DNA of 64,000 nucleotides from an uncultured Candidatus Poseidoniales archaeon (GCA_902605365.1 CACLCM010000003.1:13040-77039), one strand, 5' to 3'. Counted from the stretch's first letter, positions 12,823-29,085 are shown. The notes: generated by a model from the sequence alone, not told the origin. Numbers and translations are program-made.

Positions 12823-12895
12823 GCAAAGGGCCCCCTTTGCTTGGACGTATGAGCAATGGGTACCCCCTGATTCGTACTACTTAATCAGTGGGCTT
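12823..12895 (+). repeat. Intergenic repeat copy F: perfect palindrome GCAAAGGG-CC-CCCTTTGC, then GCAATGGGTA and a CTGATT..AATCAG inverted repeat
   Basis: The palindrome (12823-12840) starts at the first base after the stop codon. GAGCAATGGGTACCCCCTGATTCGTACTACTTAATCAGTGGG follows. Confidence 0.75.
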
Positions 12896-12905
12896 TTCAC
12901 CTATT

Positions 12906-14540
12906 TCAATCCCTATTGAGGAGAGCATATCGAACTCCTCTCCTCTGTCCGGCTTTTACTAATAAACCTTCAATTTCCATGCTTTTGATGACCATATCAA
13001 GCACCTTTTCAACAATATCTTCATCATATGAGGGGTTTTGAAATTTCGCCAATTTTCGAAGTTGGCCTTTTGTATGTGCATCAAGCCCCTTCATCATCGC
13101 AGAATTGGTATCATCATCCCATTCTTCGAAGGGCCAGTCCACCACATTCAGGAGATTTGTCAATAAATCCCTGATAATAATAGGCAGTTGCCAAGGGCCC
13201 ATTTGGACATCTTCTTCAGCAATGCTTGGTTGATTTTTCCGAACAATTGCCAAGATTTCCGAACCATATTTATTCACTTTATAGGCACCAATTTCAAAAT
13301 CCATCAATTCTTCATAAGTCAATGGCTGTCGATTGTAAATCTTGATTATATGATCGTCTGACAAAATCTGGAAAGGATATTCGAGATTGGGGTCTGCTTC
13401 AAATGTCTCTGTTCTCCAGCTAAACAAATCGCCCCTCCATACGTATGAGGCTCGGGGTTTTTCGTTTTCGGCTTCCGATATTTTCTTCAGTACTCTTTTG
13501 ATTGAATTTTGGAATCCTTTGCCATTATTATCTTCTGCATAAATCAATTCTAAGGTCTGTTTGGAATGGGCTCTGAGATTCACTAAAGCACCCTCAACCC
13601 TATCCCTTGAATCACGGTAACCTGGACCATCTAGACGTGCAAATTTCCGTAGTTTGTCAATCAATGGAAGAATATGCTGCTCACCACCCTCCTTTCCAAT
13701 GATTCTATACGGGGCAGAAATTCCAACTTCTTCGTCCATTGCGTTTTCACAATATTCTAACAGTTCGGGATATTGCTGCTCATGCATTGTAGTTAGAACG
13801 AGATAGCACTGGAAATTATCTCCCATGAAATCTAGCATAGGTGCAATCACACGCTCTTCGTTCAAATGCCGCAAAATCTTCAATTTATCTTCTATATCTT
13901 CCCCATTACCCAAAATTTGAGTTATTTTATCAAAAACAGCATCTTTTACGCTTTGCTCGAGATAGATGCGGTTTCGAAGTTCATCATTGTATACATTTTT
14001 TCGGTGCAATTCATTATTAGATGCTGAGCCAGAAATATCCACTAGAGAACTAATAGCAAATTCAGATAGGCGATCAAAGCTCAAATCATATCCTGAAACA
14101 ATTGGTTCAGTGAATTTCAGGAGAGTGAGAACTGAATCTGGATGATTTAACTTCCCAAGTAAAAGTACGCCATCATTCAGCATTTGCAATCTTTTTCGAT
14201 CATCATTCTGATCCATGATTTTCTCTGAATTCATTTCAAGGCACAGACATACGTTTCTCACAGGAAGGTCATCAGGGACAGGAATCTCAGTATCTGCCCT
14301 CCAAGCCAATGTATACATCAAGGATATGATTGGTGCTTGTTCATCTAACGATGTGCATCCGGCCAATTTTTCCGCTAATATACGAATACCTTCCCAAGGA
14401 ACCTTGATGAGTTTTTCTTCAGCAGCTCTCTGCTCTTCCCAAACATTCCAATCTGAATTTAGAGCAACCTCAACGAGTGGGAGCAGGTCCTGTGCCATGA
14501 CTTGTCTTGTTCCGGACCGGTATACAAACCATTGCCTCAA
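12906..14540 (-). CDS. Hypothetical protein, 544 aa, possible C-terminal winged helix
   Basis: Long uninterrupted ORF. The C-terminus IEGLLVKAGQRRGVRYALL looks wHTH-like. No catalytic motif recognised. Alternative start at 14498. Confidence 0.6.
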   Translation of the reverse strand: MRQWFVYRSGTRQVMAQDLLPLVEVALNSDWNVWEEQRAAEEKLIKVPWEGIRILAEKLAGCTSLDEQAPIISLMYTLAWRADTEIPVPDDLPVRNVCLCLEMNSEKIMDQNDDRKRLQMLNDGVLLLGKLNHPDSVLTLLKFTEPIVSGYDLSFDRLSEFAISSLVDISGSASNNELHRKNVYNDELRNRIYLEQSVKDAVFDKITQILGNGEDIEDKLKILRHLNEERVIAPMLDFMGDNFQCYLVLTTMHEQQYPELLEYCENAMDEEVGISAPYRIIGKEGGEQHILPLIDKLRKFARLDGPGYRDSRDRVEGALVNLRAHSKQTLELIYAEDNNGKGFQNSIKRVLKKISEAENEKPRASYVWRGDLFSWRTETFEADPNLEYPFQILSDDHIIKIYNRQPLTYEELMDFEIGAYKVNKYGSEILAIVRKNQPSIAEEDVQMGPWQLPIIIRDLLTNLLNVVDWPFEEWDDDTNSAMMKGLDAHTKGQLRKLAKFQNPSYDEDIVEKVLDMVIKSMEIEGLLVKAGQRRGVRYALLNRD

Positions 14541-14595
14541 TTATATGGCGTCATCCAATAGTGATACATTGTTTGCAGAGGGTTAAGCATGTCAC

Positions 14596-14690
14596 TCAAT
14601 GGGCACAACCAGTGACTAGCGTCTGACAAGACCCACTGCTCAGCCTTAGATTTGCTATTAACTTAGCAATGGGTACTTGGATTAACCCAT
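14596..14690 (+). repeat. ~80-nt intergenic repeat, copy C (between divergent orphan genes)
   Basis: TCAATGGGCACAACCAGTGACTAGCGTCTGACAAGACCCACTGCTCAGCCTTAGATT..ACTTAGCAATGGGTACTTGGATTAACCCAT is collinear with copies A and B. Confidence 0.85.
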
Positions 14691-14716
14691 AGAAAATAGT
14701 TGCGAATTAATATAAT

Positions 14717-15514
14717 ATGATTTTTCTGTGTTACAACATGCCTAGACACTTGAAACCAGTAGACCTCAAAGGCTGGGTCCCAATGAACCCAAAGTCGTTC
14801 GACATTAGAAACTTGGAATGGGTTGATGATGCTAGATTTGAGTACTTGGGCGAATTTATAGGACAGAAGATAATGAATCACATCTCAAAAAAAATTGGCT
14901 GGGTTAATACACCGTTTCCTGAAATGAAAAGATCCCTACATAAGAGGGTTCAAGATTCAATATCTGGTAGAGCGGCCCCCTATTATCTTCGAAATCCTAC
15001 TGCAAAACCAAATCATAACCCAACTTACAAACGATTGATCCAATTTTCTCCAGTTAATTATCACGCTAACTATTGTCAATTTTACTTTGAAGTTTACTTC
15101 GAAGGTGCAGATGCTTTCGATGGAGACGACCCCCATTCAAAACTTAAACCAAAAATAAATCCACCTGTGAACAAAGATGAGATTGTAATTTTTATCGGCA
15201 TTTATGCTGAAAAGGATGAGATGGTTTCATGGGCTGAACAAATCAAAGATTGTGAGGAAATAGAAGCTCTTGCTCATTTTGACCATGTTAATGAATTGAT
15301 TCAAAAACTTAGCGAGATAGATGTTAATGAGTATTTAGAATATGAGCCCTATGTCGTAATTTCAGATATAGTTAGTCGCTACAGAGTACAATTAATCAGA
15401 CAAAGTTTACATGAAAATGATTGGAATGGAAATATAGATTCTATTCTCGACAAGATTATGAGTCCAATATTGACCTATTTCACAGAAATTGGAAATTTAC
15501 AGGTTTCTGGATAA
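14717..15514 (+). CDS. Hypothetical protein, 265 aa
   Basis: Uninterrupted ORF with no recognisable domain. Flanked on both sides by repeat copies. Confidence 0.55.
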   Translation: MIFLCYNMPRHLKPVDLKGWVPMNPKSFDIRNLEWVDDARFEYLGEFIGQKIMNHISKKIGWVNTPFPEMKRSLHKRVQDSISGRAAPYYLRNPTAKPNHNPTYKRLIQFSPVNYHANYCQFYFEVYFEGADAFDGDDPHSKLKPKINPPVNKDEIVIFIGIYAEKDEMVSWAEQIKDCEEIEALAHFDHVNELIQKLSEIDVNEYLEYEPYVVISDIVSRYRVQLIRQSLHENDWNGNIDSILDKIMSPILTYFTEIGNLQVSG

Positions 15515-28499: not shown

Positions 28500-28550
28500 G
28501 GCTGATATTGGGAGTTGTTGTTGATGAAACTTCGGTATTTGTTTTAACCG

Positions 28551-28663
28551 AATCAAAGGGGTCCCCTTTGATTGAATGGGTAGGCAGAGGGTAGCGTCTG
28601 ACAAGACCCACTGCAAGCCCTTTGATTGTCGAAACCTAAGCAATGGGTATTCGGATAGGCCCC
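28551..28663 (+). repeat. Intergenic repeat copy B: 11-bp-arm palindrome AATCAAAGGGG-T-CCCCTTTGATT plus the ~80-nt unit
   Basis: GGCAGAGGGTAGCGTCTGACAAGACCCACTGCAAGCCCTTTGATTGTCGAAACCTAAGCAATGGGTATTCGGATAGGCCC (28583-28663) aligns with copy A with one 1-nt indel. Confidence 0.85.
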
Positions 28664-28684
28664 TTTGACAAGCCCCGAAACCAA

Positions 28685-28939
28685 TTACACTAACTTTCGA
28701 AAAATACACCAAGTTCTGGCCATTTCGGGTTCATTATGATTCCTTTTGATCTTGAAAACTTCCCATCTACCTGAGCACTGCCAATCTAACCAATCTGTGA
28801 ATGATTTATACTCGGGGGTTTTGAAATATTCTTGATAAGCGGCATTCCAAGTTTGCACTTCTAAGATACTTCCGTCGAGTTGGTCTTGTTGTGTAGTTGC
28901 CCAGTATCTTTCTTTGTGCTTCCATTCTGCCATACACAT
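28685..28939 (-). CDS. Small hypothetical protein (84 aa, Trp-rich)
   Basis: ORF only; no recognisable family. Bounded by repeat copies B and G. Confidence 0.35.
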   Translation of the reverse strand: MCMAEWKHKERYWATTQQDQLDGSILEVQTWNAAYQEYFKTPEYKSFTDWLDWQCSGRWEVFKIKRNHNEPEMARTWCIFRKLV

Positions 28940-29032
28940 CGTAAATCAGATTTTGATATAAAAGAAATGCATTAAACAGAAAAAAAGTAGGCCAGAAAAG
29001 AAGTCTTTATTCTCACGAAATAAGGATTGAAC

Positions 29033-29085
29033 TAGAGGGGGGCCCACTGCTCACCCGTCCAAGCAAAGGGTACCCACTGCTTAGA
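29033..29085 (+). repeat. Intergenic repeat copy G, with two CCCACTGC motifs, at the right edge of the island
   Basis: GAGGGGGGCCCACTGCTCACCCGTCCAAGCAAAGGGTACCCACTGCTTAG. Confidence 0.6.

What the first reader, a model, noticed from the sequence alone, without database searches (positions are those of the whole stretch)
12823..29085. Almost every gene cassette in the island is separated by a member of one structured repeat family
Between consecutive genes or operons I find the same motif vocabulary in the same orientation, whatever the gene orientation. The motifs are GGGTAGCG(T)CTG, GACCCACTGC, GCAAGCCC and GCAATGGGTA, the last with its complement ACCCATTG forming 6-8-bp stems. They occur at 12823-12895, 14596-14690, 15527-15600, 24516-24560, 26969-27087, 28551-28663 and 29033-29085. 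A weaker copy lies at 22413-22460. The 8-mer CCCACTGC alone occurs six times in intergenic DNA of this window (seven counting the 1-mismatch copy in repeat A), far more than expected by chance. This gene-repeat-gene layout resembles cassette arrays or REP/BIME-type elements. I do not know of this family being described in archaea.
Basis: seen in the sequence. Interest (0 to 1): 0.75.

Follow-up and report, generated by a model that had tools for sequence, protein, structure and literature searches.

The report
Archaeal gene-cassette junction sites
The repeats are real and are the joints of a gene-cassette system in abundant marine archaea (Poseidoniaceae, Marine Group II), apparently moved by a small serine recombinase, which would explain how these uncultured archaea build their variable genome islands.

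Summary
A covariance model finds four full ~96-nt copies in the window (E 1e-15 to 3e-23), one degenerate and one partial, all on the + strand within 11987-29086.

The same element occurs in 61 loci of Poseidoniales genomes and in no viral contig or Rfam family. It is always intergenic and usually in direct orientation when clustered.

It is not mainly an RNA. Comparisons between genomes show it is a junction: homology stops exactly at CAnnGGG|TAGCG on one side, and at a hairpin, a ~13-nt spacer and CAnnGGG-TA-CCCnnTG on the other. The window's own cassette at 14604-15598 recurs elsewhere with different neighbours.

A serine recombinase family, whose catalytic domain is closest to TP901-1 integrase, carries a homologous left end. 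In 19 of 20 loci it lies exactly 186 nt before the catalytic motif. Identical recombinase units sit in at least three contexts that break at |TAG.

Best reading: attL, attR and cassette-cassette joints of recombinase-mobilised cassettes that integrate at the central TA of short palindromes. The window's cassettes have no recombinase and would be moved in trans. Catalysis is inferred, not shown. I found no description of this.

The parts
11892..11978 (+). tRNA-Leu(GAG). The first cassette joint starts 14 nt downstream. It marks the conserved edge of the variable region.
   Evidence: ARAGORN and Rfam tRNA at 44.9 bits. Strain contig L067 is 95% identical up to here and then differs. Contigs L068 and L070 end at this tRNA.
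11987..12082 (+). Full element E1, attL-type: CAGAGGG|TA-GTGTCTGAC..CCACTGC.., with no hairpin upstream. The proposed crossover TA is at 12000-12001. A weakly conserved 3' extension runs to about 12125.
Evidence: R1 88 bits, E 3.3e-23. Fold z = -3.8.
12169..12822 (+). Cassette 1 gene (217 aa, no family).
   Evidence: ORF list. No Pfam or NCBIfam hit.
12823..12895 (.). attR-type end of cassette 1. It consists of hairpin GCAAAGGGCCCCCTTTGC (12823-12840), a 12-nt spacer, and palindromic unit GCAATGGG-TA-CCCCCTG (12853-12869, TA at 12861-12862). A P3-like hairpin CCCCCTGATT..AATCAGTGGG follows.
   Evidence: Read from the sequence. Hairpin scans. The same architecture ends shared blocks in L031/L042, L005/L033 and L044/L048.
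14604..14699 (+). Full element E2, attL-type, with an atypical 5' triplet: CAGTGAC|TAGCG.
   Evidence: R1 62 bits, E 1.2e-15. Homology to L090/L091 starts at 14617 and to L086 at 14628.
14717..15514 (+). Cassette 2 gene (265 aa, no family). It is shown to travel with its element.
   Evidence: Homologues P0001-P0006 sit in different neighbourhoods. Those whose contig DNA was retrieved and which are above 80% identity (L086, L087, L090, L091) are each preceded by an element. The 66% homologue in L088/L089 has no element at E<=1.
15527..15598 (+). Right end of cassette 2. It consists of hairpin 15527-15545, spacer, and GCAATGGG-TA (TA at 15566-15567). A 24-nt short insert GCGTCTGTACTGGGGGACTGAAC and the matching half ACCCATTG (15591-15598) follow.
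   Evidence: Read from the sequence. R1 partial, E 0.07. Homology with L086 ends at 15544. The same short insert occurs in L019.
24512..24607 (+). Degenerate full element E3, starting at the stop codon of the DUF285 surface-protein gene.
   Evidence: R1 22.3 bits, E 5.5e-4. Sequence.
24691..26922 (+). Cassette 3 gene (743 aa, Asp-rich thrombospondin-type repeats).
   Evidence: NCBIfam MtsC-like hit, E 5e-7. Repeats D4, D5 and D11.
26969..27090 (+). Cassette-cassette joint: hairpin ATACAAGGGGACCCTTGTAT, spacer, CATGGG-TA-GCG and full element E4.
   Evidence: R1 80.6 bits, E 4.6e-21. Hairpin at fixed distance. Sequence.
27102..28502 (-). Cassette 4 gene (about 466 aa, DUF4379 treble-clef zinc finger).
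   Evidence: Pfam PF14311, E 1e-13. No PDB relative.
28551..28674 (+). Cassette-cassette joint: hairpin AATCAAAGGGGTCCCCTTTGATT, spacer, CAGAGGG-TA-GCG and full element E5.
   Evidence: R1 85.9 bits, E 1.4e-22..
28685..28939 (-). Cassette 5 gene (84 aa, no family).
29037..29081 (.). Terminal attR-type module closing the array. It consists of an imperfect palindrome, the 12-nt spacer TCACCCGTCCAA, and GCAAAGGG-TA-CCCACTGC. It is 80% reverse-complementary to 12822-12866.
   Evidence: (I1) and sequence. R1 matches it only as the outer stem.

Best explanation
**What the repeats are.** They are the recombination joints of a gene-cassette system specific to Poseidoniaceae.

**The site logic.**
- The target (attB-like) is a 16-17-nt palindromic unit, CAnnGGG-TA-CCCnnTG.
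- A cassette starts with a left end: TAGCG, a 10-nt mini-hairpin, CCCACTGC, then further CCCnnTG/CAnnGGG half-sites. This is the ~96-nt 'repeat'.
- A cassette finishes with a right end: a GC-rich hairpin, a ~12-13-nt spacer and CAnnGGG.
- Integration at the central TA gives an attL (CAnnGGG|TAGCG..., no hairpin upstream) and an attR (hairpin-spacer-CAnnGGG-TA-CCCnnTG).
- The attR is again a target. Further cassettes therefore stack in the same orientation and leave composite joints (hairpin-spacer-CAnnGGG|TAGCG...).

**The window.** All three joint types are present, in three small arrays (11987-12869, 14604-15598, 24512-29081) inside a low-GC island next to tRNA-Leu.

**The enzyme.**
- The likely enzyme is a ~260-aa serine recombinase, whose gene always lies just inside a homologous left end.
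- Autonomous units carry it with restriction-modification genes or giant surface-protein genes.
- The window's one-gene cassettes lack it and would be moved in trans.

**Shown versus inferred.** Shown: the repeat family, its distribution, the exact positions of homology breaks, cassette re-use in other contexts, and the linkage between recombinase and left end. Inferred: that this recombinase catalyses the exchange, that TA is the crossover dinucleotide, and that a circular intermediate exists.
For: **Family and distribution.**
- The element is found in 61 Poseidoniales loci with fixed spacing.
- The model R1 finds clustered copies in many loci.
- The element is always intergenic.
- 15 of 61 loci lie within 250 nt of a contig end, against 2.7 expected (P 2e-7).

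**Junction behaviour.**
- Among 83 copies, pairs sharing a flank share both flanks once (a duplicate from one genome), the upstream flank only 7 times and the downstream flank only 16 times.
- Ends of homology blocks between genomes fall at model columns 7-19. The same column is found in both partners.
- L020/L027 and L090/L091 are identical from GGGTAGCG or GTAGCG onwards. Immediately upstream they are unrelated.
- This is too close to the edge of the repeat for homologous recombination.

**Right ends.**
- Blocks shared by L031/L042, L005/L033 and L044/L048 stop right after hairpin-spacer-CAnnGGGTACCC.

**The window's own cassette.**
- Window 14628-15544 is 87.6% identical to L086 and L087, with unrelated flanks.
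- L090 and L091 match from 14617. Each is preceded by an element.
- The strain contig L067 carries a different element and different cargo after the same tRNA-Leu.

**Recombinase.**
- A PF00239 (Resolvase) domain is found in L009 and L055, within 8 kb of elements.
- The family has 401 relatives at E<=1e-20.
- The best PDB match is the TP901-1 integrase catalytic domain, E 1e-17.
- A left end (GGG|TAGTC, mini-hairpin, CCCnnTG ... CCACTGC ... CCCTCTG) lies exactly 186 nt before Y[AV]RVSS in 19 of 20 loci.
- Left contexts differ while the unit stays the same. P0073-type loci show three, breaking at |TAG: AATCAAAGGG|TAG, AAGCAAAGGG|TAG and TTTCAGAGGC|TAG.
- P0007-type loci also show three, and the aconitase stop codon abuts the left end in L116.
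- R1 elements flank these units or lie inside them.
- Right ends of recombinase units are hairpin-spacer-CAAAGGG|TAGCG or GCAGGGGG-TA-CCCTCTG, followed by divergent DNA.
- The recombinase left end and the 96-nt element align over the first ~35 nt.
- In L117 two left ends meet head to head and share the TA, as expected after an inversion.

**Orientation.** Adjacent copies are 26 direct against 7 inverted (p 0.0013).
Against: - No recombinase gene lies in the 64-kb window. Action in trans is therefore assumed.
- No excised circle, empty site or occupied/empty pair was recovered. Relatives with tRNA-Leu but no element are too distant, and they show no palindromic unit there.
- Some boundaries are less tidy. 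One block (window versus L086) ends in the spacer after the first hairpin. P0011-type left ends begin CAGTC rather than TAG.
- The 10-nt mini-hairpin occurs as discrete alleles that can differ between copies with identical downstream DNA. Gene conversion between copies therefore also occurs.
- The many recombinase loci sampled are partly the same unit in different samples, so they are not independent.
- GGGTAG and CCACTGC were part of the search pattern. Their invariance in alignment A2 is partly due to how the copies were collected.
Confidence: 0.68

Rival explanations
1. A passive REP/BIME-like family. Short palindromes and a longer mosaic module accumulate in tolerant intergenic DNA. They act as homologous-recombination anchors or assembly-breaking repeats. 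There is no dedicated recombinase, and the linkage to the serine recombinase is incidental.
For: - The mosaic of palindromic units with fixed linkers resembles BIMEs.
- The elements are strictly extragenic, often within 0-30 nt of stop codons and between convergent genes.
- Mini-hairpin alleles are shuffled between copies, which suggests gene conversion.
- No recombinase lies in the window.
Against: - Identity between recently diverged copies runs to within 0-3 nt of GGG|TAG, with unrelated DNA upstream. Homologous recombination needs homology on both sides.
- The recombinase gene sits at a fixed 186 nt from a homologous left end in 19 of 20 loci and four of the five recombinase lineages sampled. 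A fifth lineage (P0007-type) also has a left end, at a different distance.
- Copy number is low. Only 1-3 exact matches per genome were found, even on contigs of 300-780 kb.
Confidence: 0.14
2. Ends of a single-strand, hairpin-guided transposon (IS200/IS605 or RAYT-like HUH enzyme). The element would insert 3' of a short target, with subterminal hairpins at both ends and an orientation set by replication.
For: - The two ends differ, there are no terminal inverted repeats, and both ends have subterminal hairpins.
- A GTAG lies next to a hairpin, as in REPs.
- There is a strong orientation bias.
Against: - The serine recombinase seeds did find hits.
- The target is a palindrome with a central TA, as expected for a dimeric double-strand recombinase.
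- A head-to-head junction sharing the TA fits inversion by a serine recombinase.
Confidence: 0.06
3. A structured cis-acting RNA (3' UTR stabiliser, terminator or sRNA) that is conserved for RNA function.
For: - Single copies fold better than shuffles (z -3.8, -3.8, -2.9).
- 76% of cells are paired in the proposed helices, against 34-56% when the pairing is slid.
- One pair covaries (columns 44:66; UA 41, CG 10).
- The upstream gene is co-oriented in 46 of 74 cases (p 0.047).
Against: - Covariation is not above the shuffles overall. RNAalifold finds only 8 invariant pairs.
- Three mutually exclusive helices are equally possible, because the element is built from one repeated 7-nt half-site.
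- There is no conserved promoter upstream.
- The element occurs in all four gene-orientation contexts.
- There is no Rfam match even at E<=5.
Confidence: 0.06
4. A classical integron: attC sites recombined by an IntI tyrosine recombinase.
For: - There are arrays of mostly one-gene, function-unknown cassettes separated by structured sites in direct orientation.
- Integrons have been reported in other archaeal phyla (PMC9668308).
Against: - No tyrosine recombinase is found in the window or in the loci. An XerD seed also gave nothing.
- There is no R''/R' (RYYYAAC/GTTRRRY) core in the sequence.
- Genes lie in both orientations.
- The main text of that paper has no word beginning Poseidoni, Thermoplasmat, Marine Group or MGII.
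Confidence: 0.02

Closest known systems
Integrons (IntI with attI/attC cassette arrays)
   Same: Both have arrays of small, mostly single-gene cassettes of unknown or accessory function. In both, each cassette is delimited by a structured, imperfectly palindromic site in direct orientation. The cassettes lack their own recombinase and are moved in trans.
   Different: The enzyme here is a serine, not a tyrosine, recombinase. The site sequence and architecture are unrelated to attC. The site is split roughly 100 nt and 35 nt between the two cassette ends, not almost wholly at the 3' end. Genes lie in either orientation, there is no single Pc promoter logic, and some units carry the recombinase themselves.
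SCC elements (SCCmec; CcrAB/CcrC large serine recombinases)
   Same: Both involve serine-recombinase integration at a short chromosomal site. The site is regenerated, which allows tandem composite islands. Both include recombinase-less pseudo-cassettes bounded by the same repeats. The cargo is adaptive or defence-related.
   Different: SCC uses one attB, in rlmH. Here many palindromic units serve as targets. The recombinase is about 260 aa and lacks the zinc-ribbon and coiled-coil part of large serine recombinases. The cassettes are far smaller (0.9-2.5 kb). The host is an archaeon.
Tycheposons of Prochlorococcus (bioRxiv 10.1101/2020.12.28.424599)
   Same: Both are marine, island-building integrative elements. 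Both form tandem arrays next to tRNA genes, carry cargo that varies between strains, and have non-autonomous satellites.
   Different: Per that paper, 910 of 937 tycheposon integrases are tyrosine recombinases and the rest are large serine recombinases. Their att sites are partial tRNA copies. Here tRNA adjacency is not general and the sites are not tRNA-derived.
REP/BIME elements with RAYT transposases in bacteria
   Same: Both have short GC-rich extragenic palindromes. These are combined with fixed linkers into mosaics, lie near gene 3' ends, and have a GTAG next to a hairpin.
   Different: Copy number here is low. The units mark module boundaries. No Y1/HUH enzyme was found, and a serine recombinase is linked instead.
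Hin/Gin/Pin invertases and IS607-type serine transposases
   Same: The catalytic domain is the same (PF00239). The crossover site is two inverted half-sites around a central dinucleotide. Inverted site pairs and a head-to-head junction indicate that inversions also occur. Like IS607 ends, the left end holds several copies of a short binding-type motif.
   Different: The best structural relative by sequence is an integrase (TP901-1), not an invertase. The units move between genomic contexts with cargo. No TnpB partner and no Fis/enhancer logic was seen.

Membership tests
Integron | An IntI-type tyrosine recombinase gene next to the array | tested here: not met
   Pfam on the major ORFs of the window lists only metabolic, surface-protein and unknown families. 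The 25 most frequent families among 150 ORFs nearest the elements include no recombinase. An XerD seed found nothing among 2363 ORFs.
Integron | attC sites with R''/L''-L'/R' arms and the GTTRRRY core | tested here: not met
   The 66-copy alignment has the invariant blocks GGGTAGCG, CCCACTGC and CARTGGGT, and no RYYYAAC/GTTRRRY pair. The breakpoint is at GGG|TAG.
Integron | Cassettes in one orientation, separated by sites in direct orientation | tested here: inconclusive
   The sites are direct (6 of 6 in the window; 26 against 7 elsewhere). The genes lie on both strands.
REP/BIME | Short imperfect palindromes, extragenic, in mosaics with fixed linkers | tested here: met
   16-17-nt units CAnnGGG-(TA)-CCCnnTG occur in tandem with ~12-nt linkers. 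They are never inside ORFs.
REP/BIME | High copy number dispersed around the chromosome, and a RAYT (Y1 HUH) gene flanked by REPs | tested here: not met
   Only 1-3 exact matches per genome were found, including on contigs of 300-780 kb. RAYT and IS608 TnpA seeds found nothing. Whole genomes could not be scanned.
MITE | Terminal inverted repeats, a target-site duplication, and presence/absence with both flanks conserved | tested here: not met
   The left and right ends differ. Among flank-sharing pairs only 1 of 24 shares both flanks, and that pair is a duplicate from one genome.
Serine-recombinase integrative element (large-serine-recombinase type) | A serine recombinase gene (PF00239, with or without PF07508) within the element, next to an end | tested here: met
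   This holds for related autonomous units, not for the window itself. PF00239 scores E 3e-30. PF07508 is recorded for some members. The left end lies 186 nt upstream in 19 of 20 loci.
Serine-recombinase integrative element (large-serine-recombinase type) | Crossover at a central dinucleotide between inverted half-sites, with hybrid attL/attR after integration | tested here: inconclusive
   Site anatomy and breakpoints fit a central TA. However, the cut positions cannot be read from sequence alone.
Serine-recombinase integrative element (large-serine-recombinase type) | Recombination of attP x attB catalysed by the enzyme | not testable with these tools
   This needs biochemistry or junction-spanning reads.
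Any Rfam RNA family, including tRNA-like | A score against a curated covariance model | tested here: not met
   Only tRNA-Leu passes at the gathering score. At E<=5 on 11850-15700 nothing overlaps the elements. ARAGORN does not call them.

The most novel reading that the evidence does not exclude
Poseidoniaceae carry an integron-like gene-capture platform that runs on a miniature serine integrase instead of IntI. Each cassette bears a split site of about 150 nt. The cassettes integrate at the TA of short palindromes, regenerate a target and stack into arrays. Recombinase-less single-gene cassettes are mobilised in trans. This would be the main builder of the flexible islands (defence, glycosylation, surface proteins) in one of the most abundant archaeal groups in the surface ocean.
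Probability: 0.5. Interest if true: 0.88.

Novelty: new variant of a known kind. Interest (0 to 1): 0.8.

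Why it matters
Marine Group II archaea are abundant and uncultured, and their genomes assemble poorly exactly at variable islands. Almost nothing is known about how they exchange genes.

A defined site, a candidate enzyme and a cassette grammar would have several uses:
- They explain the assembly breaks.
- They give a sequence handle for cataloguing the flexible gene pool from metagenomes.
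- They offer a second, independently evolved solution to the integron problem, using a serine rather than a tyrosine recombinase.
- They point to a very small integrase with a short palindromic target, which could interest genome engineers and help build genetics for these archaea.

The hypothesis can be tested directly with synthetic sites and the 260-aa protein.

Tried and rejected
- **tRNA-derived att repeat or tRNA-like element.** The 3' end of the first copy resembles a T-arm. However, tRNA adjacency is not general (7 tRNAs in 60 loci, none adjacent), and no tRNA model hit falls on the elements.
- **Viral origin.** The pattern has 0 matches in viral contigs.
- **Single RNA fold.** RNAalifold and three hand-drawn structures gave pairing but no covariation above controls, and the helices exclude each other.
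- **General terminator hairpins.** GGG/CCC palindromes are rare in the window (6, with about 3 expected). The perfect ones all lie next to elements.
- **Recombinase in cis.** None was found in the window. The HRDC protein (12906-14540) and the DUF4379 protein (27102-28502) gave no informative PDB or NCBIfam match.
- **Empty target site after tRNA-Leu in relatives.** The relatives at 63-69% amino-acid identity (L072, L073, L074, L078; L075 has the tRNA inverted) have the tRNA but no palindromic unit. They are too distant to be informative.
- **Exact-protein look-ups of window cassette genes.** These found nothing. The flanking DDAH gene gave only a 1.7-kb contig.
- **Literature.** Searches on Poseidoniales repeats, islands, transposases and serine recombinases found no description.
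- **One failed call.** One search failed on a coordinate error.

Full report

Yes.
- CCCACTGC occurs 6 times in the window against 1.47 expected, and no shuffle reaches 6.
- The repeat finder returns a four-copy direct family of 79 nt at 11993, 14610, 27001 and 28585 (D2).
- I built a covariance model (R1) from 66 copies and ran it over the window without filters.
- It scores four full copies: 11987-12082, 28579-28674, 26995-27090 and 14604-14699 (E 3e-23 to 1e-15).
- It also scores a degenerate copy at 24512-24607 (E 5.5e-4) and a partial one at 15553-15605 (E 0.07).
- All are on the + strand, and nothing scores below E=1 outside 11987-29086.
- The region has lower G+C, about 0.38-0.41 against 0.44-0.49.
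- The 'weak copy' at 22413-22460 gets no support.
- The sites at 12823-12895 and 29033-29085 are a different, shorter module (section 3).

**2. Where else is it?**

- An exact pattern taken from the core (GGGTAGYG-N11-CCACTGC-N20-50-CARTGGG) has no match in viral contigs.
- It matches 65 loci in the species-representative genome set. Four are chance hits in bacteria. The other 61 are Poseidoniales or Poseidoniaceae MAGs and SAGs, three of them mis-binned as bacteria.
- Nearly all have the same 60-nt spacing. The window is therefore from a Poseidoniaceae (Marine Group II) archaeon.
- R1 finds 93 copies in these loci, often 2-4 within a few kb.
- Copies are never inside ORFs. They are frequently 0-30 nt from a stop codon, and most often lie between convergent genes.
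- Adjacent copies are direct in 26 cases and inverted in 7 (p 0.0013).
- Fifteen of 61 loci have the element within 250 nt of a contig end, against 2.7 expected (P 2e-7). Assemblies break at it.
- Rfam has nothing, even at E<=5.

**3. Anatomy**

- The element is built from one 7-nt half-site, CAnnGGG, and its complement CCCnnTG. The basic unit is a 16-17-nt palindrome, CAnnGGG-(TA)-CCCnnTG.
- This unit is often found as a tandem pair with a ~12-nt linker. Window 12823-12869 and 29037-29081 are such pairs.
- The long element reads: CAnnGGG | TAGCG, a 10-nt mini-hairpin, CCCACTGC, AAG, CCCTTTG...CAATGGG, a 12-nt segment, ACCCnnTG.
- A weakly conserved tail of about 20 nt follows.
- The mini-hairpin occurs as four discrete alleles.
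- About one copy in six has a GC-rich hairpin at a fixed distance upstream, starting 23-24 nt before model column 1. In the window these are 26969 and 28551.
- Because the half-site recurs, three mutually exclusive helices are all about 80-86% paired.
- Covariation is not above controls, and RNAalifold keeps only 8 invariant pairs.
- There is no conserved upstream promoter.
- This looks like an array of protein-binding half-sites rather than one RNA fold.

**4. It is a junction**

- Among 83 copies from different genomes, pairs that share a flank almost never share the other flank. One pair shares both (a duplicate from one genome), 7 share only the upstream flank and 16 only the downstream flank.
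- In an all-against-all BLAST of the loci, the ends of homology blocks fall at model columns 7-19. The same column is found in both partners.
- In the cleanest pairs, identity is complete from GGGTAGCG or GTAGCG onwards and the DNA just upstream is unrelated. These are L020/L027 and L090/L091.
- The triplet before TAGCG can be GGG, CCG or GAC. The left boundary is therefore GGG|TAG.
- That is too close to the edge of the repeat for homologous recombination.
- At the other side, blocks shared by L031/L042 (1461 bp, one pentapeptide/collagen-like gene), L005/L033 and L044/L048 end right after hairpin, spacer and CAnnGGGTACCC.

**5. The window's own cassette moves**

- The 265-aa gene at 14717-15514 has six homologues. 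Where contig DNA was retrieved, they lie in different neighbourhoods.
- L086 and L087 match window 14628-15544 at 87.6%, with unrelated flanks.
- L090 and L091 match from 14617.
- Each of these is preceded by an R1 element. The joints are shown.
- The 66%-identical homologue in L088/L089 has no element at E<=1.
- A strain contig (L067) is 95% identical to window 9837-12031. After the same tRNA-Leu it has a different element variant and a different, convergent 306-aa gene.
- Contigs L068 and L070 stop at the tRNA.

**6. The enzyme**

- Pfam on the 150 ORFs nearest the elements showed no recurrent recombinase among the 25 most frequent families.
- A jackhmmer search followed, seeded with Hin and gamma-delta resolvase. 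It was run against all 2363 ORFs.
- It found two serine recombinases, in L009 and L055. Pfam confirmed them (PF00239, E 3e-30). XerD, IS608 TnpA and RAYT seeds found nothing.
- The family has 401 relatives at E<=1e-20, named 'Pin-like invertase' or 'recombinase family protein [Euryarchaeota archaeon]'. A few also carry PF07508.
- The best solved relative is the TP901-1 integrase catalytic domain (E 1e-17), ahead of resolvases and invertases.
- The true protein is probably about 260 aa.
- Context look-ups show units made of the recombinase plus other genes.
- The partners are HNH, two unknown genes and a C5 methylase; or HsdM, HsdS and two unknown genes; or a methylase-like set; or a giant surface protein.
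- In 19 of 20 loci a left end lies exactly 186 nt before the catalytic Y[AV]RVSS. It reads GGG|TAGTC, mini-hairpin, CCCnnTG ... CCACTGC ... CCCTCTG.
- This left end aligns with the 96-nt element over the first ~35 nt and shares its later motifs.
- The identical P0073 unit has three left contexts that diverge exactly at |TAG.
- The P0007-type unit also has three. One is an inverted 96-nt element joined head to head through a shared TA.
- In L116 the left end follows the aconitase stop codon directly.
- Right ends of these units are hairpin-spacer-CAAAGGG|TAGCG, or GCAGGGGG-TA-CCCTCTG, followed by divergent DNA.
- R1 elements flank these units or lie inside them.
- In L110 and L111 a recombinase-led unit lies two genes from the same M50-M28-DDAH neighbourhood that borders the window's island.

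**7. Model**

- **Target and cassette ends.** The target is the palindromic unit. A cassette starts with a left end (TAGCG...) and ends with a right end (hairpin-spacer-CAnnGGG).
- **Integration.** Exchange at the central TA gives an attL (the element without an upstream hairpin) and an attR (the tandem palindromes). The attR is a fresh target, so cassettes stack in direct orientation with composite joints.
- **Window, first two arrays.** The first is tRNA-Leu | attL 11987 - gene 12169-12822 - attR 12823-12869. The second is attL 14604 - gene 14717-15514 - right end with a 24-nt remnant, 15527-15598.
- **Window, third array.** Degenerate joint 24512 - gene - joint 26969-27090 - gene - joint 28551-28674 - gene - attR 29037-29081.
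- **Between the arrays.** Here lie an HRDC-domain gene and a glycosylation and surface-protein block.
- **Shown versus inferred.** Steps shown: sites, breakpoints, re-use of cassettes, linkage to the recombinase. Steps inferred: catalysis by this enzyme, the TA as the overlap, a circular intermediate, and action in trans on the window's cassettes.
- **Recombinase in the window.** The window holds no recombinase.

**8. Comparison and novelty**

- The system works like an integron or an SCC-type composite island, and ecologically like tycheposons.
- It fails the defining tests for integrons: no IntI, no attC core, and genes on both strands.
- It fails the tests for MITEs and for REP/RAYT systems. 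It is not in Rfam.
- The literature searches found no description.
- I rate it a new variant of a known kind: a recombinase-driven cassette array, built on a miniature serine integrase in archaea.

**9. Caveats**

- The recombinase loci are partly the same unit sampled repeatedly.
- Part of the invariance in alignment A2 comes from the search pattern.
- Some boundaries are untidy.
- No empty site or circle was recovered.

Noticed in passing
window 304-341: A fragment like a left end, TAGTCTCTGCCGACCCACTGC, followed by the hairpin CTGCCCCCATAGGGGGCAG. It lies between the 3' end of an upstream ORF (stop codon near 247, not run against Pfam) and purL, outside the island. It accounts for the sixth CCCACTGC hit. 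R1 does not score it.
   Followed up: partly
window 6540-8327 and 9302-10894: Two paralogous M28 peptidase genes about 2.6 kb apart. They produce several 75-84% identical DNA repeat pairs (D6, D12, D14, D15). This is a tandem gene duplication unrelated to the repeat family.
   Followed up: no
window 23811-24382: Repeats with a 75-nt period inside the DUF285/DUF4215 surface-protein gene (22509-24515). The neighbouring gene 24691-26922 has Asp-rich thrombospondin-type repeats.
   Followed up: no
L075 6952-15833, against window 11.9-39 kb: In a relative at 67% amino-acid identity, tRNA-Leu is inverted and lies 4 kb from the DDAH gene. It is followed directly by homologues of window 36.6-39 kb. 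The whole stretch 11.9-36.6 kb is therefore rearranged or variable between genera, not only the repeat-bearing part.
   Followed up: partly
L092-L109 (for example L102 8001-8945): Gene callers start the recombinase ORF 50-90 codons too early, reading through the left-end site (314 aa against 262 aa for P0090). Public annotations of this family probably carry false N-terminal extensions.
   Followed up: partly
L117 1878-1990: The recombinase left end and an inverted 96-nt element are joined head to head and share the TA (...CAGACGC-TA-GTGTGTGCGACC...). This is the product expected from an inversion between two sites, so the system probably also inverts DNA.
   Followed up: partly
L110/L111 (M50-M28-DDAH-GltB-recombinase-TSP3 protein): In another Poseidoniaceae lineage a recombinase-led unit sits two genes from the same M50/M28/DDAH neighbourhood that borders the window's island. 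This suggests a conserved chromosomal hotspot.
   Followed up: no
window 12906-14540 and 27102-28502: Two large island proteins have only a small recognisable domain each (HRDC at residues 372-433; DUF4379 zinc finger). Neither has a solved relative. They could be defence or nucleic-acid-handling proteins.
   Followed up: partly
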